Source: Lingula anatina
Taxonomy: Eukaryota; Animalia; Brachiopoda
Length of the DNA stretch: 64,000 nucleotides
Assembly: GCA_051362555.1 (NCBI GenBank)
Contig: CM120640.1
Span: 13,950,001-14,014,000 of the forward strand
Direction: 5' to 3'
Shown here: in pieces, positions 9,801 through 47,982 of the stretch
Position numbering within the stretch: the stretch's first letter is position 1
Layout: every line of letters begins with the position of its first letter
The notes under the pieces: generated by a model
What the model was told of the DNA's origin: nothing
The model's input: only the letters and a program-made list of their open reading frames with translations
Databases searched by the model: none
Translations under genes and position numbers: made by a program

Positions 9801-12800
9801 TGATAAGACAACAGTGTTTGTTTAAAAGTTTCTTTATGCTATGATAAACCCGGCAAATTGTATATTAATTTTTTTAGTGCTCAGTTCTTACAGTTTTACT
9901 TGAAAATTGTTAAGGAGCCCGTCTTGAGAAATCTAACCCAAAGCTGCATAATTGTTACAAACCAGCAGAATACTGATAAATTTCAATATACATACCTGAA
10001 AGCAATTGCAGCGGAGAGTCATTAATCTTGCAATTATTGCATCTACCTTGATACTTTTATAAGGCCTTTTATTTCACTTCAAAAGTCTGAGAATCGTGCC
10101 GAATTGATATTCATTCAATCTCACTGATTTGATATAAAAAGAAATTCTTTGTATGTTATAGTATGTTTTTGCCTGCAGAAAGAAGATGCACAGCCCTTGC
10201 CTGGCTACCTGTCTCTTCATCAGTCTGCAGATGGACTGACCGTCAAGTGGACACCCAATCAACTGATGGGTGGTGGACAGAACACTCAGGAAGACACGGA
10301 TAAAAGGTGACCTACAGATACACTGAAATGATTGATCATAAAGCATGCCCCTCTTGTCTTTAGTCATTTACCAATGAATCAGCGCAGAAAAAAATCCTTG
10401 ATATTTGAAAACTGATGTTGTTCATGTATTACCTTTTGCTTTTTTTTTCTTTTGAATGTTGTCAATTGGAAATGAATGTGGTACTTTGATTATTCTCCTT
10501 AATCATGCTATTGTTAGTTGTTAGTCTTTGTGATTGACTCATTCTGCACACTTTGACTGTGCACATTTGTTCTATTTTTTATTTGATTGAGCAGAATACA
10601 CATCATTTTTCCTAGATCTTTTGTGCACCAGTGATTTTTCTGTGATTGACAATATATTGTATAGTTCAAATGCAGTGGATGTCATTTAGGTCTGCATACA
10701 TGGCTCACAAAGATAATCCAAATAGTGTGTTATACTGATATAATTGTGGCAATTAAAGCCTTTTTTTAACCGTAAAACAGGGGTTGGTGGGGAACTTTAT
10801 ATTGAGTTGGTGGAATACTTTTGTCATGGTTTAGAATGTAAGAATGAGTGAATGCAATGCTTATAGTACATACATGCGCATATTGAAATTTTGTTTGACC
10901 TCAAATGTTATTTGGAATCACATAGCACAAACCATGTCTCAGTGGAAGTTCACTGATTGTTAGATGGCTGTTAAATGTAGGCGGTGTAAAGATTGGTAAT
11001 AATACATAATGTAAAATCTTATTAGAGAGAAATGATGTGTAAAATCCCATCAGAGAGAAGTGATGTGTATTTTGTCTAGAATTTTCTGTTTGCTTTATCA
11101 AATTACCACTGAGTGTGTTGTAATGAGCAGTTGTTCTTATGTTCTGTAAAGTTTTAAAACCTTTTTTGTAAAATATTAAAGCTTAAAAGCAAATTTTATC
11201 TGTTTTTAAAAGAGTGTTCCTTTCAAAAATCTAGAAATGACATGCCTCCTGCTCAGGCTAACACTTTCAAATTTCTCATAACTTGTTTTGCATTTGTGTC
11301 TTAATGATATTTATGTTTTCTTTTTTACTCACTCACATCTGTTTCCCCCCTTTAGTTCCTCTCATCATTCTGCTAGCAACCATATTCATAGACATAAATA
11401 TAAGCGTTTCCTCAAGAAAAGGGGTTCACAGGAGTGAGTATAATTTTTTCCATTCCTAATGTTTTTCTCTTTAGTTGCATTCACCCATACCAAGTTAAAC
11501 CAGTTCAGCACCAGGTAATCTTCTCCTGCTAATCAGCTGGGCAATGTGCAAGTTATTTAGACCACGTTCCCATACCAAGATTGATCTAGCAGGATCGACC
11601 CATCTCCGTTGGGGTTCCCGCTAAATAACATTCTGCTTGAGCGACTCTGATGTCTGGCAGTTGTTAAGGGGTAATTAACTAACATTTAGCAGCTGCAGTA
11701 GACGTGCCAGACATCTAAGCCACTTAAGTAAAATGCAATTTAGCGAGAATCCCCTCGGAGACAGACCAATCCTGTTAGTATGATAGGGGTATGGGAATGG
11801 TCCCTTAGTCATCTATTAGTTAATTGTGCCACCAGCGTATGCATAGGAGGTACTTTGATATTAGCCCCAAACCACTGCACCCTCCTTGTCTGTTGCATGG
11901 GAATCAAGGAACTGGCATTTAGTAGGACTGAGACTGACATTTCATTAAAAGTTAAAAGGAAACATAGACTAAAATGTGTTTCACTAACCAAGGGAAAAGC
12001 AGATATAGTTATAATATAGAAGTTAAAAGGGAACAACACAATCCCAGCACTGAAGTCACTTTTTCCTAAACTATGGGTTTAGGGGCTGTGTGCTTTTTTT
12101 TATAAACTTCATGCAATTATACGGTAGTGTTTCCCATATGCTGTCAGAGTTTGTGATCAATAAGTACATTTTCAGCACAGTTTCTACCTTTTTTTTTTTT
12201 TTTTTTTTGGGGGGGGGGGGTCAAAATTGAAAATTTATTAGATATCTCTTCTGATCCTATCTTATTATCCATTTGTCATGTCTAATGCCAGCTGGTGGTA
12301 CAAACGCAGGAGGTGGTAATTTTGTGAGTTTTAACAATTCATCCAGTAGACCTGTGTAAAATCAACTTACTACTGGGCTACTGGGATGGGGACTGACTAA
12401 TTACTGGGCAAGGTGAATTTGATCTGGTGCTGAAATGGTTTAGTGGGAAGGGTGTTCTTTTTTTAATCTTTTACCTCATGTTTTTTCCTTTATCAGCAGC
12501 TTTGATTATCAGTTGCGTCATTTCTCTATTACATATTTTTTGATTTAAGAAAAATGATGAAATTTATGAATGTAAATAATTTATGAGCGAAAAGTATCTG
12601 GCAAAAGCAAGGGATTCCTCCAGCTTAAGTTGAAAAATTTGTTATTGGAGATTTTTAACAGCATTTTTAACCTTAATGACCACCTTAATGACTAACTTTG
12701 GATGGTAGTGCCTTTGCTGTTTGGTAGTAACAATGTGGGAGCAGAAATGAATAATATATACCTAATATCTATAATTAGAATAATAGAGGCTGGGTACTGA

Positions 12801-15800
12801 TGCAAAAGTTATTAGAATAGGCAAACTCATAGCAAAAATGGGTTTTATATTTGTTGCAGTCTTTTACATCAGTAAGACTCATCCTTGAATATTGCAATGG
12901 ATTTGGAAACAGTAGAAGTAATTTGTCCTTATATGTATGTGCTTGTTTTATAACAAAAGAAATGTGATTTAGTCTCTCATATATTTTTCACATGCAATGA
13001 GCACTAGACCTTTACATTGCAAAACATTTCCTAGAAATGCCAGTAAGTTTCCCTTAATCATCTAGTCATACACCACCCAAAAGTATTGAGAAAATGACAC
13101 CTGATTTTGAGTTTTTGGTTTAATTTTTAATCACTCTTGCAGTGAGTATGGAAACTGATGAACTGTTGGCGTGATGGTATGTTTAGAATAGGGGTTATAG
13201 ATTGTTATGTTCTTGGTGGTTTTGGACTTGATAAAGGGAATTTCCAGGAAAAATGAGTTTTCCTATAAAATGTCAAAAGAACATTGCATGACCTTAAGAG
13301 CACGCAAGGGCCACTTGAACTTAATGCTGAATTTTATTTTCCTCGAAATTTAAATAGTTTCCCACAGAATACCATATCCAAAACCATTCAAAGAACGAAA
13401 GTCAAGGTTTTTGAATCACTTTTGTAACTAAGATTAAATACTGGTTTTGCATAGGGTATAACATTGTGATTAAGGAGGGAATCGCTGAAATATCCAGAAA
13501 AGTTAATTTTTCCAATACAAAGGTCTAGTGCGCATTGTGTGCTTTAAATGCCTCTGGCAACAGCTTTCTCTGTGTAATTTTCCAGTATCTACTGGGACTA
13601 TGCCTTGGCCATTCATGTGGATGAGATAGTCTACCTTCACTGCCATCAGCAGCGTAAGTACTTCTGATTGTTTACACTGCGAAAATGAAACAGATTCAGC
13701 TCATTTTGAATATTTTTTTTTTTTAGTACAGACACAGTGATACAGATTCAAAATGCAAAAAGATAGCAGACCTGGCAAGCTATATATGAGTGTTTAAATT
13801 GGAATACTTTCTGTAACAAAGTATGAAACATAAAAATATTTATATCCATAGCAAATGTGGAGTTCTTAAATTTATGCATAAAACTATTTTTAGCTGACAG
13901 TGGTGGCACCCTGGTCCTAGTGGGGCAAGATGGTGTCCAGCACCCCCCTATACATTTCCCCAAAGGCGGTCATCTGCTGGCCTTCCTGTCCTGCCTAGAG
14001 AATGGCCTGCTGCCCCATGGTCAGCTTGACCCTCCCCTATGGTCACAAAGAGGTAAAGGTAGGTGTGGTGTTGATGTCCTCCCTAGTACTGTAGAGCCAT
14101 AAGACATAATTCCATTCTGTTTGTGAATTCTTGGTTTTATATGTGCTTTTTCATCAGACTGATTTCTTGCCATGGAAAGCTGACAGTGCATTCAGAACAG
14201 TGGACTAACAGATCTGAAGATCACCCACTAAAAAGCTTGCAGCTTAATTCCCAATTAGACACTGAATAGATTCTCCATGGGGATTACTCAACAAGCATTG
14301 TAGTTGGTTGGCCATATTTGATCCATGGATCAGTTAGTCCAGTGTTCTGAATGCGGCTTAAGCTTATTCTTTTCTCATTTTGCTCAATGACATTGTAAGT
14401 GAGTGGAAATGTATGCAGTGTCCAGCTATGAAACTGGTTAGCTTAGGTAGTGTGTTCTATTTTGAACGGTCACAAGTAGACAGGAAATGTGCCAGTGCTG
14501 TGCTGTGAGACACCCATGCTAGCATAGATTTTTTTCTTTGTCAAATATTGAAGAAAATTTAAATGAACTGAAAAATGAGAAATAAATTATCATTTGCATC
14601 AATTCATTGATTTGGTATAAAAAAAGTTAAAAGACTAGGTGAGGTTATTTGCTGGCATGGTTTGGAATGACCATGTCTAGATGCACAGACTGCCATCTCC
14701 ATGGGATTTTCAAGGGAAAAAATCTGTGTTGTTGCATATTACTACACTCTTGGTGAGACTGGACCAAGCATAGAAATCTTAAGTAAACTTTCTGATTCTC
14801 TTTGTTTTTAATCAAAATTGGCCTTCCTATGTTTTATCCAGTGTCATCAAAATTTTTTGTACTTTGAGTTCCATATATTATGTCATACCAGACAACAAGC
14901 TGACCATAATATATAATTTTACTCTCATGGTCATAATGCAGTCTGTGGCATGTGCGGTTTGATTCATGTTGATGGAACTAGTGCTTCTGATATGGACAAC
15001 TCCTCATTAATAATAGCTGCATTTATATTTTGTTTAGTTTACACATTCTTCAATGTGCATTGGACAGATATTGGCACCATGACTGTAGTTTGACATTTTG
15101 TCATACTTAGAGAGAAATTCAGATATTTTCACTGACCAGGAACTATTATATGGAGTTTTTCACTAAGTTTATCTTGACTTACCTTTTGGCCAAAAACTCA
15201 GTCTAATGAGTGGAAGTACATGTATGAGGTCATTGTATGTCATGATGGTTTGATGCTGCAAACGGTTTCTTTTAAGATTATAAAATATTCAAGTGGATGG
15301 CATCTCATTTTAGCTGTTGCATGCATTTTTACTGTTGAATTATTTTAATTGTATGTATCCTGCTTTTTATGTACAGACACAGTGTGTCTGTACATATAGT
15401 CATCATCTGTGTCTATTGTTTTTGGGTGTTGTTATCATTTTCTTTATGCCAGGTCATCCATACATTTTGATTATTTATTTCTGCACATTTTGGTAAGACC
15501 TGCTTTAAGATATTGAAACATTAGTAGCATGCTGTTATTAAACATTCTCACAATTGAATAAAAAATTAAGCAATAGATTACCATTTTAATTAATTTTTTC
15601 TTGAATGTATAAATAAGTTACAAAAATACACTAACTTGACAACACTTTTTAAGCAATATCACTTTGGCATGTACTAAATAAATATGTTTTATCTATGTAT
15701 GAAAAATTGCACTTTGAAAGTGATTCTCACATCAAAGACTGCGTAGGCGAGTGATGCACATTAATTATCATCCGATTGAGCTGCATCAGTTTTGATGAGA

Positions 15801-18800
15801 TTCTGTACAAAGAAATCAATATCATGATGTCTGCCTACAGCAGCATGCCTGGCATATTTCATATAACATGGTGAACACGAAGGCAAACCCAATGAGGAGG
15901 AGAAGCACCAGAGTGGCCACTGTCTGGATGTTTGATGCTATGAGGACTACAATGTATGCAGCTATGGCAAATGTGCTGCCATGCCCTGAGTGGGGGTCAC
16001 TTTGGTAGAAAGCAGGGATTGACATAGCTAGAGTATTAAATAGAATTACAAGAATAATAATCCACCATTCTTGAGTGCCGTAGAGAAATTTCTGCATGGG
16101 TGCTACCTGTTGAATGTCACGTATCCTGCTTTCGTTTGCCTCTGTGTTCAGAATGATGTGTTCCAGGGTGTCAGCAAAAGCTTCACCGTATTTTTCTCGG
16201 TATACCTCTACTGCATCTCCAAAATCTCTAGCTGCGTACTTACTGATGAGGAGTAGGCACTCCAGGATCCAGTAGTAGTTCACCAGGATGAAGTTTACCA
16301 GGCTTAGGAAGGGAATGAGAACAGTGCACAAAATCATGAAAGCTGATCTGAATGATAACAAATAATCCTCACTGATGTAATTGTCAGCATGAATCTGAAA
16401 ACCCAGCAGCAGCAACATAACAGCGAACAAAAAAGAATTTCCCACAATACAAATATACGTTCTTGTTAGAATTCCACCACAGAAGCCTGTTCTCTCCGAT
16501 ACCTTAAAACCATGCACATTTAAAATTAGTTCCATATCTTTCACAAGTCTTCGCACCATATACATTCTGCTTACATAGACTATGGATAAGTCCACAAGAT
16601 CTATGAACAATAGAATCATACCAGTTATTTGCCAGGCATTACCAAACTGGTAATCTTTTCCAACAGCTAGTCCAAAAACGGTGAAAATTATGATTGGATA
16701 GAGGAGAAATTCGTAGCAAAGATTGGTGATATACTGAATGCGTTTATTTCTGTGTTTATCCTCCTCTGATGTTTCTGTCATTCCAGTATTTTTATTTTTG
16801 TAATACCTTAACTTAAGGTAGAAATAGATGACAAGGAGAACAATGTTCTCTAGGATCCCAATGATAAGTGCAGGGATTTTAAAATGTAAAAAGTTTGGAT
16901 CAACCGCAATATCCGCTATGGTAAATACAAGGTTGGCTAAGAATACGCAGTGCATGAATACTTCCAATGAGGTGGCTATGCATGGGTTGAGGGGTTTCTC
17001 TGTCTGGGATGTAATTAATTTATGTCCAAGGTTAGCCTGGTCCTGATTTGCTCCGTATGATAACCGTTGGGTGTCAGAGACAAAACAGTGGTTTTTCAGT
17101 CTGTCACTGGCACTTATGTTGCCTGCACCGACATCTTGTCTGACTGCAGCCTGGTCTTGGTGGATGATTCTGTCACTTGTAGAAATATTGTCCATTTCTG
17201 GAATTGAAACGGCAACTTGGTCATTTTTTATTCTAGGTGTAGGCATTTCCACACTTGGGACAACTTGATTAGATTTTACGTGAGTGGTTCTTGGCTGTGT
17301 TTTTCTGTTCACAAACGTCTTTGTTGAACCAGCCTGTAAGTTAATGGTCCTTCCTGATGCATCTGTGTATGTAATTTGTTGCCCTTGATGGTAAGTAACT
17401 GCCGGACTGTCACCTTGACCTTCAGCCCCTGCGTGGTTGACTACTATTCTAACTGTCTTGTGCACAACTTTCGGCATTATGAAGATTTCTGTCTTTTATC
17501 CTGAAATGAAAGCATGTCTTGAATACTTATGAAAGACAAAGTGGACTATGTACACAAAACCACAAACTGGATGGACATAGAGTGACCTTAACCACAAATT
17601 TAATCATCAATAATAATAATAGATTTTTATTCATAATGAAATATTTGGAAAAGTGTGCTTAGTTTGAGGTTCATTATTTTTTATGCCTGAGGCCACATGG
17701 GGATAATAACCTGTCAAGGGGAACTTTTCCACCCAGGGGATAATTCAGACATCATTGACTACATTGAATGACAACACACTGAGTGAAAGCTTTAATCCTA
17801 TTTCCTCAGATATTTTTATGATAGATAGATCTGTTGAATTTAGCATTGGCAAGTCACTGTTGTATATTCCTTTTTCTTGGGAATGTGAATTTTTCTTGGT
17901 CTTTTATTTAGACATATTTATTGGACATCGGAAATATTTTTAAATTGTAGAATCCAAGAATTTAAATAATCTGTGTATTAACATTTTGAATTTTTTGTAA
18001 TGAGTTTAAAAATTGATTATTAATTATTGAAAAAGTATAAAATATATTGCATATAGAAAACTTACATGAGATTGTATTTTCACCTTTTTGAATGAGCTAG
18101 ATGACGGTTTCTTAAAAAAGTTCATTAGCCTGTTAGTTATACATGGATTGTTAAATTAATCAATTCACAGACAGTTTTTATCTTAACATTTTCATCAATA
18201 ATTTTGATCAATGACAAATGAATCAATGATTACAACTCGGCGTTAGAACATCAGTGCATGACCAGTTTGTCCTGAGGAAGGCTCTTGAGTTGAGCCGAAA
18301 ATAAGGTGGCACGAAAATATTTAGATAAAAACTGTCTGTGAAATGATTAATTTAACAATCCATAGATGACAGTTATTTACACAGGATAAATCACCAAGAG
18401 ATACCCCATACAGGAGGTTGATAGCATGTAAACATGCTGAGTTGGCAGTAGCACTGTTTTCACAGGAAGCTTTTTTGGTGTTTGAGAAGTGATCATGATT
18501 GGTTTCTAGTGTAATTTGAGACATGTCTCAAAATTTACAATGGTTGTGTGGAAAGGTAGAAAAGAAAATGGTGTGTTTGTTTTTTTCCCCTTTTATTCTA
18601 GAGGTATGATCCCCAGAAGACAGATCGACAGGTGTAATTTAACACTTTTGATAAAATTTGTAGTACAAATTTTAAGAAGAATTATAGCTGGGTAACATAG
18701 CCCTTTTCACTAGCTACACAATGCCATGAGAATTGTTTGTATAGCTGCTTTGGGGACAGGGAAAGTCCTGAAAGTGAAAGTTAAATTTTTATTCCCAAAA

Positions 18801-21800
18801 CATTTCTGTTACATAATCTGAGGAAATGGGGAACACAATTTTTAGTAAAAATGTATCAATAGTGTGCAGAATCATATTTTTTGGTTTTATAAATACTTAT
18901 GAAGGTATTACACCCTCTTTTAAGTTGAAATATTTTTACACTAGCATTCCTCATGTCACTGTATATTGGACACATATTGGTTTTACTGCACTCACCTATT
19001 TAGTGACTTTCTTTGAATTTGTCAAGCTTCTCTTTTCCTCTCCATCCATTTTAACGTCTTGAAATTCTTCTATTACTTCATAATATATATGTTCTGCTTC
19101 CAAAATGAGTTTAACGGCGAATTTGACAGCTAAACTTTCTGTTTTATTCAATATGGTGGACTCACTATTTGCTTGTATTTATACAGCAACATGTCACATG
19201 GTACACAGGATAAAAGCCAGGTATCCGTGTATCCAATAGAATGCACAGCCCAAACAATGAACCTCAGGTCTACGTCAGTAGGTTTTGTGTTGACCAAAGT
19301 AATGTAACCAGTATACCGTGAGAAGAGCTTAATTACTGGCCTTTTAAGTTTGCCATATTTATGTTAAGATGTTATTTCTGGGATTAGAAAGTTTTTTGGC
19401 AATATTTCTTAGCATATATGACTGCTGTTGACATCTAATAATTGTTGAATTTAAAATGTTTTCAGGATGCCCAATGTTTTAATATTGAAAATAAAGCAGA
19501 AATATAGTACATGACCTTGAAAAAAAAGCTCAAACTAAGATTTAAATTTTTAGTGATTTTTACCTGGATTATTTGTTGTGGAGTTTTAACACTGGGAGAA
19601 AATCAATGATTTAATGATTCAATTCTTCATGAAAATAGGAAAGAAATTACACATTGCTGGTTGAAATAATTGCTATAGAATTTCATAACCTAATGAGATA
19701 TGTAATATACAGAGAGAAAATTGAAGTGATTATCCAAAGGTTCAGAAAAAAGCACAGATATTAATGACATACATAGACAGGAGAGAGGCAGCTTATTGCC
19801 ACTAGCCTCCAACTTGATTTTTATATTGATTTTCTTTATGAGTTAAAAATTCATGCTTAGAGAATGCTGTGTTATGATTGGAACTCGGCAAAAGCATTGG
19901 GGCTTTTTCTAGTGTAAGTAAGCTGTATTGATCCTGTTTTACTTATTACAACATTGATGCTATTACTGCTAAACCTAAGGAAATTTGGTTGTTGCATTAA
20001 ATCAGAATTAATGCTAAATGATGGAACTTATACAGCCAAGATGGTTTTTCTATTGCTTGATGTATAATTGAGAAGTGATAAAAACCCAATACATAAGCTA
20101 TTGTCTTTCATGCACATTACCCTGATTTGATGAAATAGTGATGAGAAGCTCTTTATTCATACACATGCAAAAAATTTTAATCATGACTGTATATGCCAAT
20201 TAGTGCAAAATGGTTATAACATCTGCAATGTTTGGTAACACAGTACAGATAAATCATTTGTCAATTGATGGAAATATGTTCTTACATCTGACCAAAAAGC
20301 ACACAATGCACTTTTTTCTGCTTAGAAAATGCTTTTAAAATCTGCTGAAAATATCACATTGCTATTCGTTGAGATTAATGTCATCTTTTTTGTACATTCT
20401 GTATATTCCCATGCTAATCCCAGGGGTTTTCTTGTAACTTTCTACTTATGACCTATTGTTCACGTAAGTTGGTAATTCAAGGTTTGTAAGTTGTAACCCT
20501 TTTAAAATATTGTCTCAACCCCTCCTTTTTTTTTTTTTTTTTTTTTTGCAAACTTTAAAGAAAATTTGCTTATCCAAAATGCTTAGCAAATACACTAGAT
20601 TGGTGAGTTCGTATCAATATGTTATAGAACACATGATTCCATTATATTACAAGTTAAGTCTTTGTAAAGTCCCTGACCTTTTGTTATGACATAGACATGG
20701 ATCACAACTTTTTAACTGCTTCAATCTCAGTTTTATTATACTCCATGTGTGTTATCAGTACATCCAAGGACAATATTGCTGAACAAATCAGTCACTGGAA
20801 AAATACACAAAATTAAACTTTGCCTAATTACCTAGGACTATTGTAAATCATGGTGTATGATAACACTGACAACATTTATAACATCATCTGTTTGTCATGT
20901 TAAGTTTGTAGCAAAGAAATACATTGGTAAAACATCAATAATTTAGATAGCCAGTAATCCCATGCTTTACAAATTAAAATAAATATAAACATGCTGATAC
21001 CCATCACATAAAACATTGAACCATGATAAGAGATTAGTATACACTATTTATAGAATTTCTTTATATACTATATTCTGTGTGAAAGTCTTATCTTCACACT
21101 TTTATTCTGAGTCAACGGTTTTGTAACTTTAACATTAAAAAATAAATAAAAGAAAAAAAACAGAACTGAGTGGGAATCAAACCCACTCCCCTGTGATTGG
21201 CAGCCAAGGATATTACCACTGGGCCAGCAAGTCCTGCCATCTGATGGAGTGCTTTTGACAATATATGATACCTGTCACACATGCCTTTACAGAAATTGCC
21301 GAAGGCTAGAAAATGCCTTCAAAATATACTTTTAACAGTTATAATCAAATTTAAACTATGGCCACTACCTTCCCACTGCCCTAAGGTATTGCTAACACCT
21401 GACAGTTGTCAACAGATTATTGTAGTTTGAGAGACAAAAAAGGTAAAAAGGAGACTTCAGCTGATCTGCTATTACTATATAGATGCACTTTTTACTAGAT
21501 AAAAAAACGGATTTGTTCTATTTTATAAATTTGTATAACAATAAAAAGAATAGGAGGATAAAAAACACTAATCCTGCATACTTCACAATTCCATTTTGTT
21601 CAGAAGTCATCTCTTCCCATCTCTCTTTCTTTTTTTCAATCTCTTCATCCACTTCAGGTGGATCACTTGGTTTGCTGTACTTATGTTTGCCAGATGAATC
21701 ATCAATAGCATCACGAGGAACTGATTTAGTCTGACGTTTAGAGTTCCATTTTTGACTCACCTTGTCAACTGAAGAAGTCTTACTTGAAAATAAGGAGAAA

Positions 21801-24800
21801 CCCCTGTTGCTTTCAAACTCACTTAGCGTGAGTTGGCTGGTATGAGATCTGTTGCTACTGATGGTAGTTTCTTTTGTATCGTTAGAAGAGAGTGAATTTG
21901 TGCCGGTGCTTTTTTGTGGACTCGTGATTAGACTAAATGTCTTTTTTCTAAGCCCATGTTTATGTGATTTTTGATTAGGCATTTCTTGTTCCAGATGTAC
22001 TTCATTGTTTTGATTCATTGAACACATTGTGCACAGGCCTTCACTGTGATTGTGATTTGTTTCTGTCTCTCTGATTTCACATTCTATTTTAAAGTCACCA
22101 TTCTCTTCTGACTGTTCTTCAATTTCTTCTAAAAGCAAAGTTTCAAAATTACCTTTAATGTCATTTGAAGCACCGCATGTATGTTTGCCATCTTTCTCAA
22201 TGGATGTTACTACATCTACTTCCTCACATTCCACTCTTTCTGTTTCCTGGAATTCTGCTATCAGTGGCTCAGAGAGTGGTTTTTGAATTTTTTTGTGTTC
22301 TGCTATTTTCTTTTCTGTCCCAGTGCCTGCCTCTATACTGCTGTGATCACATTCAGGGCTCACAGATGAATGAGCAGGGTTTGCATTTGACCTATGTTTG
22401 AAAGCATGCTCTTCCTGATATGGAACTAGGAGTTGTCCATTGTCTTGGGCGTGGTCAGTATTGATGTCATGGTCACTAGTCCATCTGACAGTGGCATCAT
22501 GTCTCTCAGGTCCATCACCATCATCGGAAGTTCCAAAAAGCCATTCTCCTTGCACATTTTTCTCCTTTGTAACTGACTCATTTTTAAAACACTGTTTTGA
22601 TGCAGGGGTTTCTTCGCTGAATCTTTCAGCAAAAGTAAATTGTTGTCCACCTTTTTTGGGACCATCAGTGTCAGTGTTATTATTTTTCTCGGTGGCATTA
22701 GGAATGACATGTATATCTCCAGCCTCCATGAGAGACCCTGTGAAAAAAACCATGCAGTACATCTCAGTTGCATTCCTTCTAGTAGATGATGTTCGTGGCA
22801 TGGTTAAAGTAAGGAAGCAGCAAGAGCAAGTGGAATTTTAAAATGGAACTAGAGCTTTAGAAGTTAGAAAATCAGACAAAGAATGTTTTAACCTGTCTCC
22901 TATACATCTTGAAAAAGCTATTTTCCATTATGTAGTCTGATGACCATAATGTGTGGCAAGAAAATTTTCCTGACTGAATATTACAACTAAATGTCATCCA
23001 ATTGAACTGCACAGCTGCCAGGATTTTTTAAAAAAAGAAGTAAATGAGATGGGCAACTGCATACTCACTAATGTTGCAGGGAATGAGGCGAGCACTGTCC
23101 TCGATCGATCCTGTTGACACATAGGCACTTCAGTTTGAAAGTGTCATGCAAGATATGCACTGCTTGATTATAGGAATTCTTGTACCTTTTTTCATGCCTT
23201 ATTTCTCTCGGCAAATGATATATATGGCATAAGATAAGTAAATCACTTCCTGAATTCCATTCAAAACCTTGCCTTTTTTGCCATGGTCAGTTCCCTACAA
23301 AGAAAAAAAAATTTTGAAAAGCAATTACTCTGTGTTAATCTGACACTTTCTCTGATATAAAAATAAGCTTACGGGATTAACTCTTCCAGTATGAAGTCAT
23401 TCATGCCTTTCTTTGGGAGATTGATAAGGTAACATATTTCAAATCCAGATAATAAATTATATTATAAATCTCTAAAGATATGATTAACTTTGATGGTAAT
23501 GGATTCAAGTTCATCCTTTGAACTGATAGGAGAACATTACTAATGAAACGGGAATTAATCTTTTTGATAAAATTTCCTTAAACTACATTTCCTGAAAAAA
23601 ATATATGCATCTAACATTTACCTGCTTTCCACTTTTGTCCCTTTTCAATTTTTCTACATTATTCAACCTGGGGTGCTTGACTCAATACTATAATTGTGTC
23701 CTCTGTTATGAAGAATATTTAAAGTGCTAATAATATTTCACCTATATGCTGGAGGGTGTGAATAATTCCTCTGGGAGTAATTCAGGACATTGCCCTCTCT
23801 TTGATACACATCCTAATGACCAAATTACCAACTTGTGTGTGAAATGGAATCATGTTAGAGTCCATAAAAACTGAATGTTTGATTAAATTACAGTGTTGCT
23901 TGTTAATAAATTTTCTTGCATTTGGTTTCTAATCAATAATCCCCTGAGTGCAAGTTTAATATTGGGGATGCAATTTCAAAGTTCAGGTAAACTCACTTCC
24001 AAGCCTATCTCTCGGGAAATAACTTCAGAGATCAAGACAGCTGATTAGATAGGATGCAACAATGAAGAGTTACACCTGAAGGTGGAAACTTGGAAAATCC
24101 CTACATATTTTGTATCAAAAGTATATTAAAACAGTAAAGTAATTATCTTATATCCCAATAACAATGCTCGGAAATCATCAACAATCATATGAAAATCATC
24201 TTACACCTCAACTTGGTAAATATTTGTCAGCAGAATTATTTCTTTTGCATTTGTAATGTTAAGTAAAACTTACCACCTGAATCTTCAACCATTATAAAAG
24301 TGTTATAAAATCGCTTATTATTCAAGCCACTGATCGAATCTTGGCTTTGTTTTGTTTTCACAATCATTTCATTTTTATGCAAAGCATACTTGTTCTAAAG
24401 TGAGCATAAAATGATTGCTGCTGGAATAGATTTTTAATTTAGAGTTGTCAAACTGTGAAATTGATAATTCCTCTGTACCGAATTGTAAAAATATTAGGAC
24501 TTAGAAATGGATGGCATTATAAATGGTCGCCAGAAGACAATGACAGTTGGACTAATGGAAATAGGAAGACAGTTAAATAATGTTCCTACCTTGTCAGAAT
24601 GAAGGGTTCTAGCACACCAATATCTTCAGCAGGATTTCAATAGGGATCACTTGAGTAAATGAATTTAGGTCATGAGGCCCATTACTCTGCATTTCAGTGT
24701 CAGTTGGTTGTTATACCCATATAAATGTATATCTTTATACGTATACCAGTTGGGTCTTTCCTCTACCTTAGATCTTATTCATATCTTATTCATTTAATCT

Positions 24801-27800
24801 AATTTCCATAGTCACTGTTTATTTTCTTTCCTTTTGTACAAAAACAGGGTTCCACTTAAGAGTTATCTTTACTTTTAGGTAAATACACATAACACATGTG
24901 CTAATTGTTGACATAAGTAAATATTTTGTATGGAGGGCACTTTGCTAGATTTCACCCATACTGTTCATTTGGACCTGAATGTGATTGTTGAGATGAATAA
25001 AGATTATTTTCACTGCAGTGGACTGATGTCAATAGTGTACTGTGACATACAGTTGTGTCTTGGTTGTGGCTCTTCATGATATGCTTATTTAAACCTATCT
25101 TGGACTCTTTGGACCAGGAACCCAGTGAACCACTAGAGTGAGAAGAAAAGGAATGGATCTCATGTTGACTGCAAAAAAAAAAAATAAATAAAAAAAAAAA
25201 AATAATAATAAAATAAATAAAAAAGATTAATAATAATAATAATAATTAGATAAAATTATTATTATCATCATTATTATTCTTGTTATTATTTATTTCTTTA
25301 TTTTTAAGAATAATAATGATGATAATAATAATTGTTTAATTAAAAAAAACTATATGCTAGCGAGAATGTCTAATGATTTAATTTAAATGTGTGACATTAT
25401 TAACATATTATTGTTTTCAATGATGGACAAGATAACAAATGACACCACTGACTGCAGACATATCAGTATGCTTGTGCTCAGATCATTGTAAAACCCTGAA
25501 AAAAAGTAAAGTGGTGGGAGAAGTGCTTTTAAATTTTAGTCTGATATTTATAAGGTGTAAGGTTAATTTCTGAAAGAGTTATTTTGATATAATTTTAATA
25601 GTTGGAGATGGTATGTGTCAGCTTCTGGCCCAATTCCAATCAACAGTTTTGATGAAAGTGGGCTGCAAATATTTTTGAGGTGTTCATTATTTTTCAGCAA
25701 TCAATAAGCTTTCTGAAAGCTTTTTTTCCACATTATCATAGTTATTGTAAAAATCAATTTTTGGAGAAAGAAAAGGTGTTAAATACCTTTGTTTGGCACT
25801 AGTACCAAATACAAATTATTTAACTTATATTTTTGAAATAATTTATTGTCATTTAAATATGAGATAGATGATGAATTCTTTACATTTGATAACTTCTGTC
25901 AGAGCAGTATTATGTGTTTTGATAAATCTTTAAAACTTTATATATCATTTTCTGCTGGTAAAAATTCGGTATTACTAATCAGATGGAATTCAAAGTAAGT
26001 TTTGACATGCAAACAGAGACTAAAGTCTTTATTCAAAAAAAAAAAAAAAAAAACACTGAAAACCCAAATCTAACTTTTCTATATAGTGCGCAGTCAGTGC
26101 ATCTTGTATCTGTGTTGCGCAAGTCACTTTCTCCAAAGAAATTTTGTGGGGGTTACGGAAGAGGGTATCGAAAACAGTCCTTGTGACCAGATTGAAATGC
26201 CCCCTGTGTAGGTAACAAACACAACAATACCATGCTTTTCATGCCTCAAGAAATTTGTATGAGGAGTAGTGTATTACTTCTTTTGTATGGCACATGAAAG
26301 CAGAACTGTAATATAAATATGTGCCACTCTTTGCAGTATTTGGCTAGCACGACATTAATGGTACTATACTTGAGAATAAGGACCTCATAGCATCGATGGA
26401 GGAAATTCATGTCAAAATGTCTCTCTGAAAGGCAAATATTTAAGTCACCTGTTTTTACCTTAATGAACTTGAAAGTTAAAACCAAATTACACGTGACTTC
26501 TGAGAAGCCAGGATATTAGGAAGAGGAAGATATTTGTATATATATTTCGTAGTCCATGAGATTTGGTTACTTGTCCTTTTTGAACACAGAGTTAAAGGAG
26601 ATTTTAATAGAACATAAGCAGTTCTTATGAAAATGACAACAAGGATGACAAGCAGAAGCTTAATGAACACAGCACCAGATCATATGCCATAGTACTAGAA
26701 CACTTCAGAGAATGTGACTTTGAACCCAGACAATTTTTTTTCTCTGCCATTTTGGAAACTTAGTGAAGTACCGACATGGCGGGCTCTAATAGGCATAGTA
26801 GAGTGATCTCCAAATCTTTCCGGGTAAGTGGGTATTGATCTATATCCTTCACTTTTCAAACATACAATTCTACTCTAAGATTGAACTGAAATTAAAAAAA
26901 AAATACGACAAAAATTATGGAAAGGCATACTGATCAAGCATTTTATGATTTTGTCTCAGTAAAAGATGGTTGATCTAGTGATAATTTAATGAATAATCAA
27001 CTGATTTGATGAATGGTGATGTGCTTCTGCATTAATCTGTAACATTATTGGAAGTTCAGTTTCTACTCAAAGAATCTTTAGACTATTTTGAAAAATTTGT
27101 TTTGTACAAATTTCAGATGTTTGGAAATACAAATGGTGGGGATTCAGATGATGATGATGATAGCAATGGGGAAAATAATGATGGACTTGAAGAAGAAGAA
27201 GAGGAAGAATTGAGATCCCTGAGAAGTCCATCAATTCCGTCCATAGCTCCAGATTTGGATGATATCCTGGAGGACGTTTCTCCTACGCCTACTCCCACAC
27301 CTCCCCCAGACGAGCCACCAGACGAACATTTAGCAAGAATAATTCCACAATTCAATCATCCAAAGAGGGAAGAAAATCGCCAAAAAATTAGGAACATGGT
27401 GAAAAGGGTGAATGTGGTGTCAAAATGGAGGGACACAAGGACAGTGACAGGAAAAGTTACCACAACGTTTATATGTGCACCTACACAGAGGATTACCTAC
27501 AGGGAGAATCGAATTCAGGCATCTGCTGCCTTGGAGACTGTCAATTTGGTAACAAAGCCTCCGCTCAGTAAAATTAAGAGCATTTTCTTCAGGGTTCTGG
27601 CAGAATTGATTTTTCTGGCTAACTTGACTTTTGCCCTGTATGATATCATTACTGGCCCTGAATTTCTGTATTTCAAGGTCACAGCATTTCTTTTTGGAGT
27701 TTTTGAAAACCTGCTCATGTTTACAATGTGGTTTATTCTGTCCTGTCCTTGCATGAAAGGAGAGGAAGAGAAAACCAAGAAAGTCGAGAAGTATCGTCAG

Positions 27801-30800
27801 TATATAGAAAATGTTGTTCATGAACTTTTGATCTATCCTGCCATTATTATCAATGTAATTGCAATAGCCACTGAGCAGTCGTATACATTTGAAGAGGTTG
27901 CTGCTATCATAACTATGGCATTACTCTTCATAGATGGCATTGATTTGATTTTCAACGTTTACACTGTGAGAATGTTCATGGCTTGGAAAATCACCAGGAA
28001 TATTGAAGATGAAATCTTGAAAGTAGCAGTGGACGAGAGTAATACATTAGAAAATGCCACCCTCGGAGGGAGCAAATTTGGTCGTGTGCTACAACGATTT
28101 TACTTCACTATGTTAGGAAACACAATGCTTATGGGATTGATGCTGTGCACTCTGGGAGTGCAGGTTTTATATGACAATCAAGACTCAGGGGACTATACCA
28201 TGTCATTGTATGCCATTCTCCAGATCGTTTTAGTTCTCTTTTTTCCATTTTACAGCATTTTCCTCTTCATAGCAGTCAATTATTTTTGGATTTTTGAGTT
28301 GTTCATCAGTATTAATCGTGCTGTCATGCGCAAAAAGGAAATTCAGGAAAATTTAGTTATAGATTATGGGGAGATGGTTGGGGAAGTATTGAATTTTGCC
28401 ATTGATAAATCAGATTATACGGAAGTTCGGCATGAAGATATACAGACTATCACATCCACCCAAAAGTTTTTCTATGCTTTATGGGAGTGGTGGATTGCCA
28501 TATTGTTGTTAATGTGGCCATTAATGTATGCTGCATTTGGAGAGTCACTGAATGTAATCGATGTCCCAAGTGCACCTGAAATGAAGGTAGCATTCTATGT
28601 GACAGCAGCTGTGGTTAATTTACAGGTGTGCTTTTTATCAATTTGTATGCTGGTGATAGCAGTGCTGTTTCTGGCTGGTGGTTTTCTGGTTGTTATTTAT
28701 TATTATTGTGTAGGTAAAAAGAAAAGTAAAGTAGACCACCATGGCAAAGCAGATGACATTGTGAAAGTAGAAAATGGCAATATTGATAAGCTACGATAGT
28801 TCAAGTTTTGATGGTCATATAAAAAGCAATATTTTATGAGAAGTCATGTTCACAAGTGCTGAGCTGAAAAAAAAAATGAAAGAATTGTGAACTGGATTCT
28901 TATTGTGCATTGTGTAGGCTATTATTGATAGCCAAAAGAATGTTTGTGTGTAATCTATATCAAGGACTAATATTGTTGCTGGTTTTTGATCATAAAACCT
29001 TAATACTCAAAATTATTTTTGTTGTTATTTGTCACATACATCTCACACTGTATGCATGTACCCAGCATGTGTGTATAGCATATAGATATATGTACATATG
29101 AATGTGCGCTGTGAAGGCCAGAACTACTATTCGTGCTATAATAAGTTGAATCCTGCTGGGATTACTTGTAATCCTATAATGCAGGTTATGTTAAATAGGT
29201 ATGATTCATTATTCCTTATATTTTCAATGTGTTTGAAAATTAATTTTGGTCTATTATTGAAAATTAAAGTAAATTATTTCTCTAGAAACTAAGCATGTTT
29301 TTACATGTAACTACCCTAGCCTGCATAGCATTTTGACTCATGAATGCATGACTCACATGGCTATGAATAAGGATGAAAGCACTACTTTTTTTCATTTTTA
29401 CAAAAGAGACAATAAAAAATCTATTTCACTGATCCACTTATTATTGTTTTTGATCATTTTAACTGTGTAGACACTTTTTCTACTGATTCAGATGAAACAT
29501 TCTGGCATTTCCGTACGGCCTACTTTGTAGGTCAAGTGTTAAATTGGCTTGATCAAATTATTCTTTCAGTAATATAATTTTACTTTTTTTGACCTGCTTT
29601 AAACATTCTGTTTACAGTAGAAGTGGGGGCTTAACTGTCAAAAATAAGTTTAATTATCATAAGGTTGTCTGTACATATGTCGTCATTAGGTGACTTATTT
29701 TCAAACCACGAGGGAAAAGAAAGAATTACTTACAGGTCATACTGTACTGTACGAGTTAAGTGAGGTCTGTGTATAGTTTGCTTAAAAATAAAGATTAGAA
29801 ATAAAGTTTGCTTAAAAATAAAAATTCATCTTTCATAAAATATACAACTATCAAGAAAAAGAAATGCTATTTAAGGCATTTACATAAAGGTTCTCCAAAA
29901 AGCAATTTCAAGTTATGAGAAAAAAGACCCATCCACTGACATTCTTTGGATTTCATTTCAAAAGTATTTCTTTTAATTCTAATATTTATTCTTATATATA
30001 CTTATACATTTTTTGTCTTTTGCAGGCAAAGTATTTCCAAAATTGCGAAAGAGGAACAATCGTCTGCGGGGCAGCAGCTCCAGTGCCTCAGGCTCCAGTT
30101 CAAGCCAAGATGGAGACCTGCATTCAGACTTGTTTGTAGATGAGGAGACCACAGACTATGTTTTTAGGATTATCACCACATTCAGACCAGAGAACATGCG
30201 TAAGTCCTGAGTTTCATAATAGGTCTGAATAGAAGGTATTTGAATTATATTCTCCCCTATAAGGACAAATAGAAATTATACTTTTACTTAATATTGTGCC
30301 TGTTTTGTGTATATTATTATTGGACTTGTTACTACAAAGTTAAATGTCAGTGATTTGGTAGATGCATGTTCCTTATTTGTAATTTCAGATAGTAAATCAT
30401 CTCTGTTGTTACACACTACGTACATTTCAGTTTAAAGAATTTTGAGACTAATGCTTTTACAAGGTAATTTTCTTCTATGAAATGGTTGCTTTCAAATTTG
30501 TTCATCACATTTGATTTAAGCCCCAGAAATCCTTGACACAAAGACAGAGTTCAACTTCAAGCTGTTGGACCTGTTTCCATGGCAGAATAAAGAGACCAAC
30601 GTGAGCAAGCCGTCTACTCCAGTCACCCCAGAGACTTCCGTGCATTCGTACGCTAGGGCGCAGCAGCACATGAACAACACATGTATCTTTCAGAATCAGT
30701 CAAACCACAGGTATTGATGCTTTTATGGACAGTTCATCTATTCAGTATTTGCCAACTGTAAGTAAGATGTGGGGATTTTAAAGTGATAAAATTGGATGAA

Positions 30801-37150: not shown

Positions 37151-39075
37151 TTAGTACCACCAGCGTGTACGCTGGCGGTACTCATGGTTTTAGTCCCGAC
37201 CCGTCTCGTCCGGCTCCGCCGGCTCCGCCGGCTCTGCCGGCTCCGTTGGCTCCGCCGGCTCCGCCGGCTCCGTAAGCTCCGCCGGCTCCGCGTACTGGCG
37301 CCGGATACAAGTCACCGTTACCGCTTCTCCTCCTAGACCGCAAGGACCCCTGTCCCCATCTCTTGGATTTAGGTCACATATAACCTCAACTTGAACCCCC
37401 AGGTTTTTTTGTCTCAGTCGGTACATTGACCTGGGCGTGACGCTCCTTGAAATGCACCCTTGTCAAAATTTTTGAAAATTCAATGCCAATTATCTACCCT
37501 ACGGAAGGAATTATGGGAAAATTTTCTACAGACGGCTTTCCAAAAGTCATATGTGTAGATTTCAAATATGCCCTTGGATTTGACCTTTGACCTTTATTTC
37601 AAGGTCAAACGGGCCAAAATTTTCAAAAAAATGAAATTTTTTATGAAAAAAAATATTATTTGCACTGTTATTCAGACACTACACAGACTTAACCAATAAT
37701 TATATTGGAAAGTGTTACCCTTTGGGTCATCTTTCATCTCTGTGAATTTGGGGTCAATCGGTGCATTTTCACAGGAGTAGCGGCCATAAAATACCGAAAA
37801 TGAAAACTGTCTCTAATTCGGGAACCGTTAATGCTAGCGACCCGTTCTTTTTTGCATTTTGTAGAGCATGTAAAGCCCAACACTGAGAGTGGTCTCCGTT
37901 TTTTTTGTATTTCATACGGTTTTCGTGTTATGCTGTATTAAAAAGTACTTTGTGGTGGCACATTTTTGTAACTCAGAATTGTAACATTTAGTCCCTTATA
38001 TCTCCAAAACTGGCAGAGATAGGTCAATAGTTATTATTTAAGTTGAATAGGAAGTCATTTACTTGCAATCTAGATGTGAGCTTGAAATTGACCTTTGACC
38101 TACTTTTCACCATGAATTGAACTTTGCCAATTTTTGTTCCCTTTAATCTCCAAAACTGGCAGAGATAGGTCCATAGTCACTATTAAACTTGAATAGGAAG
38201 TCACATACTGGCAATTAATCAGTGACCTTAAAATTGACCTTTGACCTACTTTTCACCATGAATTGAACTTTGCCAATTTTTGTTCCCTTTAATCTCCAAA
38301 ACTGGCAGAGATAGGTCCATAGTTACTATTGAACTTAAATAGGAAGTCATGAACTGGCAATTTACTGTGACCTTTAAATTGACCTTTGACCTTCCTTTTA
38401 CTATGAACTGAACTTAGCAAATTTTCGTTCACCTTTATCTTCAAAACTGACAGATAGGTCCATAGTTACTATTGAACTTGAAAAGGAAGTAATACACTAG
38501 CAATCTGTGACCTTGAAATTGACCTTTGACCTACTTTTTATGATGAACTGCTTTTTGCATGTTTTCTGGCCTTTAAATCTGCAAAATTGGCAAAGAAATG
38601 TCCATGGTTGCTATTGAACTTGAATAGAAATTCATATACTATGATATTGAAATTGACCTTTGACCTACTTTTTCACCATGAACTGAGCTTTGCATATTTT
38701 CTTGCCTCTCATATCTTTAAATCTAGCAGAGATGTGCCCATTGTTTCCCCTGGGTTTTCTCTTTTGTCAGCATATATGCACCATTGACAACACATTTCAA
38801 GGAAAACCAATAGGCCTTTTGTCTAGAGAATACAGTAGTGAGCAAGGGTAGGAAAATGCAAGTCAATTTGAAAATCTGCTTGATTGTATCATTTTTAGTT
38901 ATATTTTTTGCATATTTTGAGAACTCTTGTTGATTGCATCTTATAGAGCTTGTCAAACACCAGACTGGTGATGGTGTCCCTTTTAGGAGGGGGGGGGGGG
39001 TCCATACGAATGCGCTTACTCCAGCTGGTGGTACAATATCTGGAGGCGGTATCGCCTCTCTGATCCTCTAGTTTT
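37151..39075 (+). mobile_element. Non-autonomous Helentron/HINE (DINE-1/pearl-like) element with internal tandem array, family H2
   Basis: TT plus a 5' hairpin agtaccaccagcg-tgta-cgctggcggtact (37153-37182); a 9-bp (CCGGCTCCG)n microsatellite (~37209-37290); a central tandem array; 3' subTIR gctggtggtac (39024-39034); 3' stem-loop gaggcg-gtat-cgcctc; ctagtttt end. End fragments of the same family occur at ~12288, ~50295, ~53825 and, inverted, at ~62760-62813. Confidence 0.8.
38001..38745 (+). repeat. Tandem array of ~146-bp units (about 5 copies) inside element H2
   Basis: Units start tctccaaaactggcagagataggtc at about 38001, 38147, 38293, 38438, 38578 and 38714; each full unit carries aaattgacctttgacct. 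Confidence 0.9.
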
Positions 39076-47300: not shown

Positions 47301-47982
47301 AATGGTTCGCGTGCACTGCCGCTACATTAAAATAGTTCCTCGTATTTACCTATTTTTCTCCAATTTATTGTGCACTTCTCTTGTGCCAGCTCTGAAATTT
47401 AGAAAAAACACACAATCGTTACACCATAAACTGTATTTACAACATCAAATTATCGTTGTGGATTCGTTTTCTCATACTTCAGCATGAAACCAAAGCCAAA
47501 AATAGACAATACAAATTTACATATCGAACACTTACCCGCCCGCTCGCCGCTTCTCTTTGCCATCTTCCGAAGGACTATGTATGGAGTTTTCCCCATAATC
47601 GGAGCCGCCAGAATTATCTGCGTTAGGTTGAGAGTTTGGAGACTTTGCATACTGATGGAATTCTTTGCTTGATTCGTTTTCTGAAAGAAGACGTGTCCTC
47701 GACCTAATTACTTATGCCAGTTGTTTATGAACAGTAAATTAGGTCATGCATTTTACACCACGCATACAGATCAATTGTAAACAATCTCGCCTTTAGTTTC
47801 TTACTTAACTATCCTATAGCTATCGCTGTAAATTCAACAGCATGTTTAACTTGTAAAAACGTACTAAATATCGTTCTAATACTTCAAACATCTCCAGCGT
47901 GCGTGGACTACATACCACGTGCATTAGTATTTGATCGCCACTCCAAATATTCTGCTGCCTCCAGGAGAGTCTCCAGACTCAT
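41380..47982 (-). CDS. MNT: Max-binding protein MNT (SID + bHLH-ZIP transcriptional repressor), ~650 aa
   Basis: Exons (minus strand): 47982-47916, 47680-47536, 47391-47350, 46455-46344, 44547-44364, 44091-43987, 43625-43296, 42347-41380; phases are consistent. N-terminal Sin3-interaction motif MSLETLLEAAEYLEW; bHLH GAGTREVHNKLEKNRRAHLKECFETLK..KKTSNLSILRSALRYIQTLKRKE; zipper; DQETNSTSTATE; polyQ and a Thr/Val/Pro-rich tail. Confidence 0.95.
44862..45102 (+). mobile_element. Second copy of HINE-like family H1
   Basis: cagccaagg ... cataactcaaaaagttat..gattttgatgaaattttcagg ... ccttggtggaggtct ... gagtgc, matching 1715-1965. Confidence 0.7.

What the first reader, a model, noticed from the sequence alone, without database searches (positions are those of the whole stretch)
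14059..30025. A three-gene cassette of unknown membrane proteins nested inside one 16-kb intron of SGSM
Seen: all other SGSM introns here are under 5 kb, but this one is 15,967 bp. It holds three long ORFs: A (-, 551 aa, multi-pass), B (-, 427 aa, tail-anchored) and C (+, ~576 aa, multi-pass). A and C are clear paralogs pointing away from each other, with B between them. Their coding regions are essentially single-exon, unlike the exon-rich neighbouring genes. I recognise none of the three proteins. Inference: a lineage-specific module, possibly a heteromeric channel/receptor pair plus an accessory subunit, that arrived by retroposition or transfer and expanded by inverted duplication.
Basis: partly seen in the sequence, partly recalled or inferred. 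Interest (0 to 1): 0.85.

Follow-up and report, generated by a model that had tools for sequence, protein, structure and literature searches.

The report
Unnamed ancient membrane-protein family inside intron
One large intron of a lamp-shell (brachiopod) trafficking gene holds two distantly related genes of an unnamed family of many-pass membrane proteins, likely channels or transporters, with relatives in a sponge, annelid worms and an acorn worm, plus a third orphan reading frame that nothing here ties to them.

Summary
The window is Lingula anatina. RNA reads splice across the 15,967-bp SGSM intron, which holds ORFs A, B and C. A is a real independent gene: antisense, with a spliced 5' exon, seen in 2 of 4 RNA runs, pN/pS about 0.13. 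A and C are paralogs but not lineage-specific. A profile search found 145 other relatives, with named members in a sponge, two annelids and a hemichordate. No member scanned reached a Pfam cut-off (73 proteins). The family has a conserved core of about 9 hydrophobic helices with near-invariant buried polar residues and prolines, and a variable disordered N-tail, so it most likely transports ions, solutes or lipids (inferred; no usable fold). A and C are only 31% identical, as far apart as from their closest database relatives, so the duplication is probably old. B has no relative found and had no reads over most of its CDS in runs that express A. A co-working trio, retroposition and transfer are unsupported. 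Nested clusters of membrane-protein paralogs are known (insect TipE). The undescribed family is the real lead.

The parts
13895..14058 (+). SGSM exon upstream of the large intron (PH_RBD domain)
   Evidence: Pfam PF12068 E 1.8e-21; junction 13653>13894 and onward splice seen in reads
14059..30025 (+). 15,967-bp SGSM intron that hosts A, B and C
   Evidence: GT..AG ends; 31 reads in X12 join it to the next exon
15822..17477 (-). Gene A CDS, 551 aa, about 9 hydrophobic helices after a 165-aa disordered N-tail; RefSeq LOC106150892 and near-identical LOC112041363
   Evidence: depth 3-11 over most of the CDS in X17 and X18, near 0 in X12 and X15; 13 synonymous and 6 non-synonymous alleles
17501..18995 (-). 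5'-UTR intron of gene A, 1,495 nt, GT..AG on the minus strand
   Evidence: junction in 9 reads of X17 and 10 of X18; splice sites printed
18996..19300 (-). Non-coding first exon of gene A; far end approximate (depth bin only)
   Evidence: depth in bin 18916-19309 and the junction
21518..22801 (-). ORF B, 427 aa, acidic, Ser/Glu/Lys-rich, one hydrophobic segment at residues 404-422 (tail-anchor-like); no relative found, expression not seen
   Evidence: zero depth 22068-22855 in 4 of 4 runs
26776..26823 (+). Gene C coding exon 1 (16 codons)
   Evidence: translates to the first 16 residues of XP_013379434.1
27117..28799 (+). Gene C coding exon 2 (560 codons), paralog of A; RefSeq LOC106150944; RNA not tested here
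30026..30199 (+). SGSM exon downstream of the large intron (end read by eye)
   Evidence: matches the loose ends of reads at 14059; sequence

Best explanation
A and C are two paralogous genes of an unnamed animal family of polytopic membrane proteins that likely act as channels, transporters or lipid scramblases; they sit in an SGSM intron, likely as passengers, and B is likely an unrelated orphan. Shown: intron splicing; A's own spliced antisense transcript and purifying selection; family membership; occurrence in a sponge, annelids and a hemichordate. Inferred from hydropathy and charge: N-terminus inside, short acidic outer loops, long basic inner loops, 8 full crossings plus one interfacial or re-entrant helix, Cys-rich inner tail (perhaps palmitoylated). 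Inferred mechanism: helices 3-6 form the working core, where near-invariant E256, P261, R304, N366, P389, W403 and N516 (A numbering) would line or gate a polar path, and the 24-977-residue disordered N-tail would carry regulation. Inferred history: an ancestral copy came to lie in the intron and was duplicated in inverted orientation long ago, or two old paralogs came together there.
For: Family: 147 hits at E<=0.001 among 1.84 billion representatives, 2 of them A and C themselves; 58 at 1e-10 and 27 at 1e-30. All 148 stored proteins re-score at E<1e-6 with a 27-sequence seed profile. Named members in 4 of 10 clusters looked up: Owenia fusiformis, Ptychodera flava, Lamellibrachia satsuma, Oscarella lobularis. 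Topology: family-mean K+R 4.9-10 in loops N, 2, 4, 6 against 0.2-1.2 in loops 1, 3, 5, 7; no hydrophobic segment or signal-like stretch above 1.8 in 73 N-tails. Conservation among 95 near-full-length rows: P389 95/95, E256 90/94, N366 89/95, W403 88/95, N516 77/84, P261 84/94, R304 74/94. TM3 and TM6 are the most conserved, and the conserved faces of TM4-6 lie 150-167 degrees from the hydrophobic face. Two or more Cys in the last helix and tail in 53 of 79, against 21% of random windows. No His is conserved above 41/94, which weighs against a His-metal enzyme. A: stranded reads opposite to SGSM in X17, spliced junction, pN/pS 0.13, p 2e-5. Age: A-C core identity 30.8%; best identities to others 31.7% and 31.0%, 26-27% to annelid members. 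B silent where A is expressed. Precedent for nested clusters of membrane-protein paralogs: PMC3240667.
Against: The transport role rests only on topology and conservation; the conserved polar residues sit near the membrane borders and could be structural (E256-R304 as a salt bridge). D293 and D189 are conserved only in the close subfamily (28/93 and 26/76). The A-C pairing is not rejected (AU p 0.22), so a brachiopod-specific duplication followed by fast divergence is possible. Two old paralogs kept side by side may be kept so for a reason, as argued for TipE. B was tested in only 4 RNA runs, read at 6-25% of each run and of unknown tissue, and B has codon-position G bias like A and C, so it may be a real tissue-restricted partner. 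The pN/pS uses the 40 best-supported of 151 variant rows (19 alleles at 18 sites in A). 6 of 10 clusters looked up had no name and 135 of 145 relatives were not looked up, so non-animal members are not excluded.
Confidence: 0.5

Rival explanations
1. A and C are obligate partners (a heteromeric channel or receptor) kept together by selection, with B as an accessory subunit: the first reader's module.
For: Two paralogs only 31% identical are still within 10 kb in one intron. The insect TipE cluster is a nested, co-regulated cluster of channel-subunit paralogs (PMC3240667). B has a long open frame beyond chance and a C-terminal hydrophobic segment.
Against: B had zero depth over 22068-22855 in the two runs that express A. 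A has its own promoter region between B and A; A and C do not share a bidirectional promoter. B has no relative found (547 candidates) although the A/C family is widespread, so an obligate B is unlikely.
Confidence: 0.15
2. The family is a remote offshoot of a known polytopic fold such as the XKR scramblases, below the reach of sequence profiles.
For: XKR9 has eight crossings, short outer and long inner loops, and a polar TM3 kinked at a conserved proline motif (PMC8298096 passages). This family has the same loop pattern and a conserved Glu..Pro in TM3.
Against: No Pfam family is matched by more than 2 of 56 members at E<=1, and none of 73 reaches a cut-off. Profiles of 56 and 90 members give no PDB sequence better than E 0.1 and 0.07. 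No internal two-fold repeat was detected (hhalign probability 1.9%). The long inner loop follows TM6, not TM2.
Confidence: 0.15
3. The proteins are membrane sensors or receptors (chemosensory or immune) that signal through their disordered N-tails, rather than transporters.
For: Fast divergence, many paralog-like branches, near-single-exon CDS, sample-restricted expression of A, N-tails of 24-977 residues.
Against: Outer loops are very short (6-15 residues), and no signalling domain is fused in 73 members scanned. A is under strong purifying selection.
Confidence: 0.12
4. The trio is cargo of a transposon, virus or horizontal transfer.
For: Compact CDSs in an unusually long intron; several MITE-like inverted repeats in the intron.
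Against: No transposase or RT frame among frames of 120 codons or more; no terminal repeat or target-site duplication of 14 nt around the trio; named relatives are all animal; spliceosomal introns in A and C; host-like GC3.
Confidence: 0.05

Closest known systems
Insect TipE/Teh gene cluster nested in the last intron of CG18675 (PMC3240667; abstract and section 6 read)
   Same: Several paralogous membrane-protein genes nested together in one intron of an unrelated, widely conserved single-copy host gene.
   Different: TipE proteins are characterised sodium-channel auxiliary subunits with conserved synteny over 21 insects and shown co-regulation. Here no function, synteny or co-expression is shown, and the proteins have about 9 hydrophobic helices with no Pfam match.
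Nested (intronic) genes in general (PMC13343718; passages read)
   Same: Internal genes with their own transcripts; the paper counts 513 nested pairs in Drosophila and 1,129 in mammals, so nesting is common.
   Different: Three internal ORFs on both strands; two belong to an undescribed family.
XKR scramblases (XKR8, XKR9; PMC8298096; passages read)
   Same: N-in polytopic layout with short outer and long inner loops, a polar TM3 with a conserved proline, an even number of crossings (inferred here).
   Different: No sequence-level match to Pfam or PDB; PQL motif absent (YPL/YPI at the nearest place); no internal repeat detected; fold not determined.

Membership tests
Nested gene (internal gene in a host intron) | Lies wholly within an intron that is spliced out of the host transcript | tested here: met
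   31 reads join exon 13895-14058 to the exon at 30026; A, B and C lie between
Nested gene (internal gene in a host intron) | Own transcript, independent of the host | tested here: met
   Met for A: antisense, spliced, present in 2 of 4 runs while the host is present in all. Not seen for B. Not tested for C (RefSeq model only)
Co-regulated functional cluster (TipE-like) | Members co-expressed | tested here: inconclusive
Co-regulated functional cluster (TipE-like) | Linkage conserved across related genomes | not testable with these tools
   No genome held for this window or for animal relatives; no locus of a relative retrieved
Lineage-specific (orphan) genes | No homologs outside the lineage | tested here: not met
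   A and C: 145 other relatives, named ones in Porifera, Annelida and Hemichordata (phylum labels recalled). B: none found by the word-limited search; the sensitive search was not run on B
XKR scramblases | Match to the family profile or to solved XKR sequences | tested here: not met
   No such Pfam row for A, C or 73 relatives; no XKR chain among PDB rows to E 10
XKR scramblases | Conserved PQL motif in TM3 | tested here: not met
   TM3 has E256..Y260-P261 followed by a hydrophobic residue, no Gln (motif)
XKR scramblases | Two structurally related four-helix repeats; XKR fold | tested here: inconclusive
   No sequence repeat (1.9%), but such repeats are often invisible in sequence; models too poor to judge the fold (pLDDT 44 and 41)
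His-metal intramembrane enzymes (ceramidase/PAQR, desaturase types; features recalled) | Invariant His cluster | tested here: not met
   Best-conserved His column 41 of 94
Retrogene | Loss of the parent's introns, with poly(A) remnant or target-site duplication | tested here: inconclusive
   A and C keep 5' introns; no flanking duplication around the trio; exon structure of relatives unknown
Transposon or viral cargo | Element ends or mobility genes around the ORFs | tested here: not met
   No 14-nt direct or inverted terminal match, no other long frame
Tail-anchored protein (B) | Single hydrophobic segment within about 30 residues of the C-terminus, no signal peptide | tested here: met
   One segment, residues 404-422 of 427; that the protein is made is not shown

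The most novel reading that the evidence does not exclude
A and C represent a new class of animal channel or scramblase with an undescribed fold, kept from sponges to hemichordates and overlooked because none of its members has been named, and the two Lingula paralogs stay linked in the SGSM intron because they assemble into one heteromeric complex.
Probability: 0.2. Interest if true: 0.8.

Novelty: new variant of a known kind. Interest (0 to 1): 0.5.

Why it matters
Ancient animal membrane-protein families with no Pfam entry and no solved relative are uncommon leads. This one now has a defined core, about 95 near-full-length members and a short list of near-invariant residues, which makes its fold and activity directly testable. 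If it is a channel or scramblase, it adds a class of membrane transport protein present since early animals. The locus also warns that 'orphan' calls in Lingula (21% of genes had no BLAST match in PMC4595640) can fall once a profile search is run: two word-based searches found only the proteins themselves. The nesting itself is ordinary.

Tried and rejected
Word-based protein searches found only the Lingula records for C and A and nothing for B; the first two were false negatives, as one search showed, so the blank for B is weak. Structure: both AlphaFold2 jobs were run before relatives were in hand, with 1 and 2 sequences, pLDDT 44 and 41. Fold searches on them gave only generic helical matches (best Z 9.1 and 10.0; Foldseek best E 0.53) and say nothing about the fold. 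Complex prediction for the A and C cores: no answer, score 0.00 in two runs, folds uncertain; not used either way. ESM Atlas: C gave only leads under 0.8 (TMEM117, TMEM39A), B no usable hit; blanks show nothing. NCBIfam and PHROGs: no match better than E 0.02. Pattern scans of viral, metagenome and prokaryote contigs: no relative; low sensitivity. Scans with the deep alignments could not run for lack of a conserved stretch. No RNA holder was listed in the run index; raw reads were laid instead, on 13400-25200 only. Rfam and ARAGORN: nothing in the intron or window. No further decayed A/C copy in the intron. Rows dropped: 52 of 148 stored proteins were fragments or partial and left out of the alignment statistics; the AU test used 35 rows on a quick tree. 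Literature: no paper held names the Lingula accessions or those of four named relatives; one supplement file of PMC13425148 had none of them; topic searches listed nothing on this family (titles and abstract starts only). Subscription papers and bioRxiv supplements were not searchable. Earlier-findings look-ups by sequence gave nothing. SGSM exon borders other than those seen in reads were not mapped by script.
Full report
Source and host gene. C matches XP_013379434.1 of Lingula anatina at 99% and A matches XP_013379368.1 and XP_023930220.1 at 99%; the two A records are probably alleles assembled twice (inference; the 2015 genome paper gives 1.6% heterozygosity, PMC4595640, passages read). 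The host exons match RUN, PH_RBD and TBC profiles, the SGSM layout. No whole genome was available.

Observation. The intron 14059-30025 has GT..AG ends, and 31 reads of run X12 pass from the upstream exon to the exon at 30026. It holds A (551 aa, minus), B (427 aa, minus) and C (plus; 16 + 560 codons). Simulated introns gave at most 212 stop-free codons in 300 runs, and shuffles of B at most 188 in 2000. Other SGSM introns in the window are under 5 kb by eye. A and C align at 34% over 355 residues, E 7e-52.

Expression and selection. Four RNA runs from three studies were laid on 13400-25200 (6-25% of each run read). A is covered at depth 3-11 over most of its CDS in X17 and X18 and near 0 in X12 and X15. 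In X17 its reads have the mate orientation opposite to the SGSM exons. A 1,495-nt intron (17501-18995) is spliced in 9 and 10 reads, so A has a non-coding first exon and its own promoter region between B and A. Among the 40 best-supported of 151 variant rows, 19 alleles at 18 sites fall in A: 13 synonymous and 6 not, pN/pS 0.13, binomial p 2e-5. B has zero depth over 22068-22855 in all four runs and at most 0.69 over 21674-22067.

The family. Word-based searches returned only the Lingula records, but hmmsearch with the A+C core against 1.84 billion representatives gave 147 hits, 145 besides A and C. A seed profile of 27 re-scores all 148 stored proteins at E under 1e-6; 96 are near full length. 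Of 10 clusters looked up, 4 carry names: Owenia fusiformis and Lamellibrachia satsuma (annelids), Ptychodera flava (hemichordate) and Oscarella lobularis (sponge); all are labelled unnamed, hypothetical or uncharacterized (phylum labels recalled). So A and C are not lineage-specific. None of 73 members reaches a Pfam cut-off, no Pfam family is hit by more than 2 of 56, and profiles of 56 and 90 members find no PDB sequence better than E 0.07. I found no paper naming these proteins (limits under Tried and rejected).

Anatomy and likely mechanism. Family-averaged hydropathy gives seven separate segments and a final 40-residue hydrophobic run. Loops alternate between long and basic (N-side, 2, 4, 6) and short and acidic (1, 3, 5, 7), and the N-tails (24-977 residues, median 138) have no hydrophobic segment. 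This implies N-in. With a Cys-rich tail in 53 of 79 members, probably inside, the simplest reading is eight crossings plus one interfacial or re-entrant helix (inference). Near-invariant positions are P389, E256, N366, W403, N516, P261, Y260 and R304; TM3 and TM6 are the most conserved, and the conserved faces of TM4-6 point away from lipid; no His is conserved. Kinked helices with buried polar residues and no catalytic cluster fit a channel, transporter or scramblase best. This step is inference only.

History. A and C are 30.8% identical over the core, about the same as their best identities to other proteins (31.7% and 31.0%) and little above those to annelid members (26-27%). The best tree joins A with an unnamed protein, P0016 (SH-aLRT 98), not with C, but forcing A with C is not rejected (AU p 0.22). 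The duplication is therefore probably old; whether it happened in place is open. There is no mobility gene, terminal repeat or target-site duplication; GC3 is host-like; named relatives are animal. Transfer and mobile cargo are unsupported. Retroposition is not needed, since both genes keep a 5' intron.

B. It is acidic (net -21), rich in E, S, K and T, with one hydrophobic segment at the C-terminus. Its frame is beyond chance and shows codon-position G bias, but no record or relative was found among 6,547 candidates of 234-748 residues, it matches no family member, and it was not seen in RNA. It may be a tissue-restricted orphan, the last exon of a longer unseen gene, or a decaying gene. Nothing ties it to A or C except position; it is head-to-head with C, 4 kb away.

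Comparison with the known. Nesting is common (PMC13343718, passages). The insect TipE cluster is a direct precedent for paralogous membrane-protein genes nested in one intron of an unrelated conserved gene (PMC3240667, abstract and section 6); there co-regulation and synteny are shown, here they are not. XKR scramblases share the loop pattern and a proline-kinked polar TM3 (PMC8298096, passages), but the family fails the sequence and motif tests, so it may work like one without being one. An earlier scan note (e1-7275469) describes an annelid nine-helix domain of no known family fused to PARP; no PARP domain appeared in the 73 members scanned, so a link is untested.

Verdict. Observation confirmed; interpretation partly supported. 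The arrangement is a known kind and the three-gene module is not shown. The lasting result is an unnamed, ancient animal family of polytopic membrane proteins with a defined conserved core. Interest 0.5.

Noticed in passing
window 41380-47560 (-): A bHLH gene (Pfam HLH E 7e-10) with long Thr/Pro/Gln-rich exons lies tail-to-tail with SGSM; it looks like MNT. SGSM2 and MNT are neighbours in human too (recalled, not checked; one search listed 2 papers, none read), which would make this an old microsynteny and suggest that the nested genes moved in.
   Followed up: partly
window 49340 onward (+): Multi-exon gene matching Pfam TMEM219 (E 4e-14), probably TMEM248 (name recalled), head-to-head with the bHLH gene.
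   Followed up: partly
window 15363-15414: A 50-nt piece draws hundreds to over a thousand partly matching reads in all four runs, which continue into GTC-type repeats elsewhere: the end of an abundant transcribed repeat.
   Followed up: no
window 14177-14365, 18136-18370, 1238-1470, 11567-11825, 3367-3624: Several MITE-like inverted repeats in SGSM introns; the 1238-1470 and 11567-11825 copies are related.
   Followed up: no
window 21169-21228 (-): A short stretch with tRNA-like A- and B-box look (by eye), perhaps a decayed SINE head; Rfam and ARAGORN did not call it.
   Followed up: partly
window 17165: A 6-nt in-frame insertion allele in A is read in X17 and X18 and is the form in both RefSeq records (553 aa).
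   Followed up: yes
P0143, P0060, P0045, P0024: Family members with very long low-complexity or repetitive N-tails (up to 977 residues) or a long acidic insert in inner loop 2.
   Followed up: no
window 37987-38700: Tandem array of a 146-bp unit, about five copies, downstream of SGSM.
   Followed up: no
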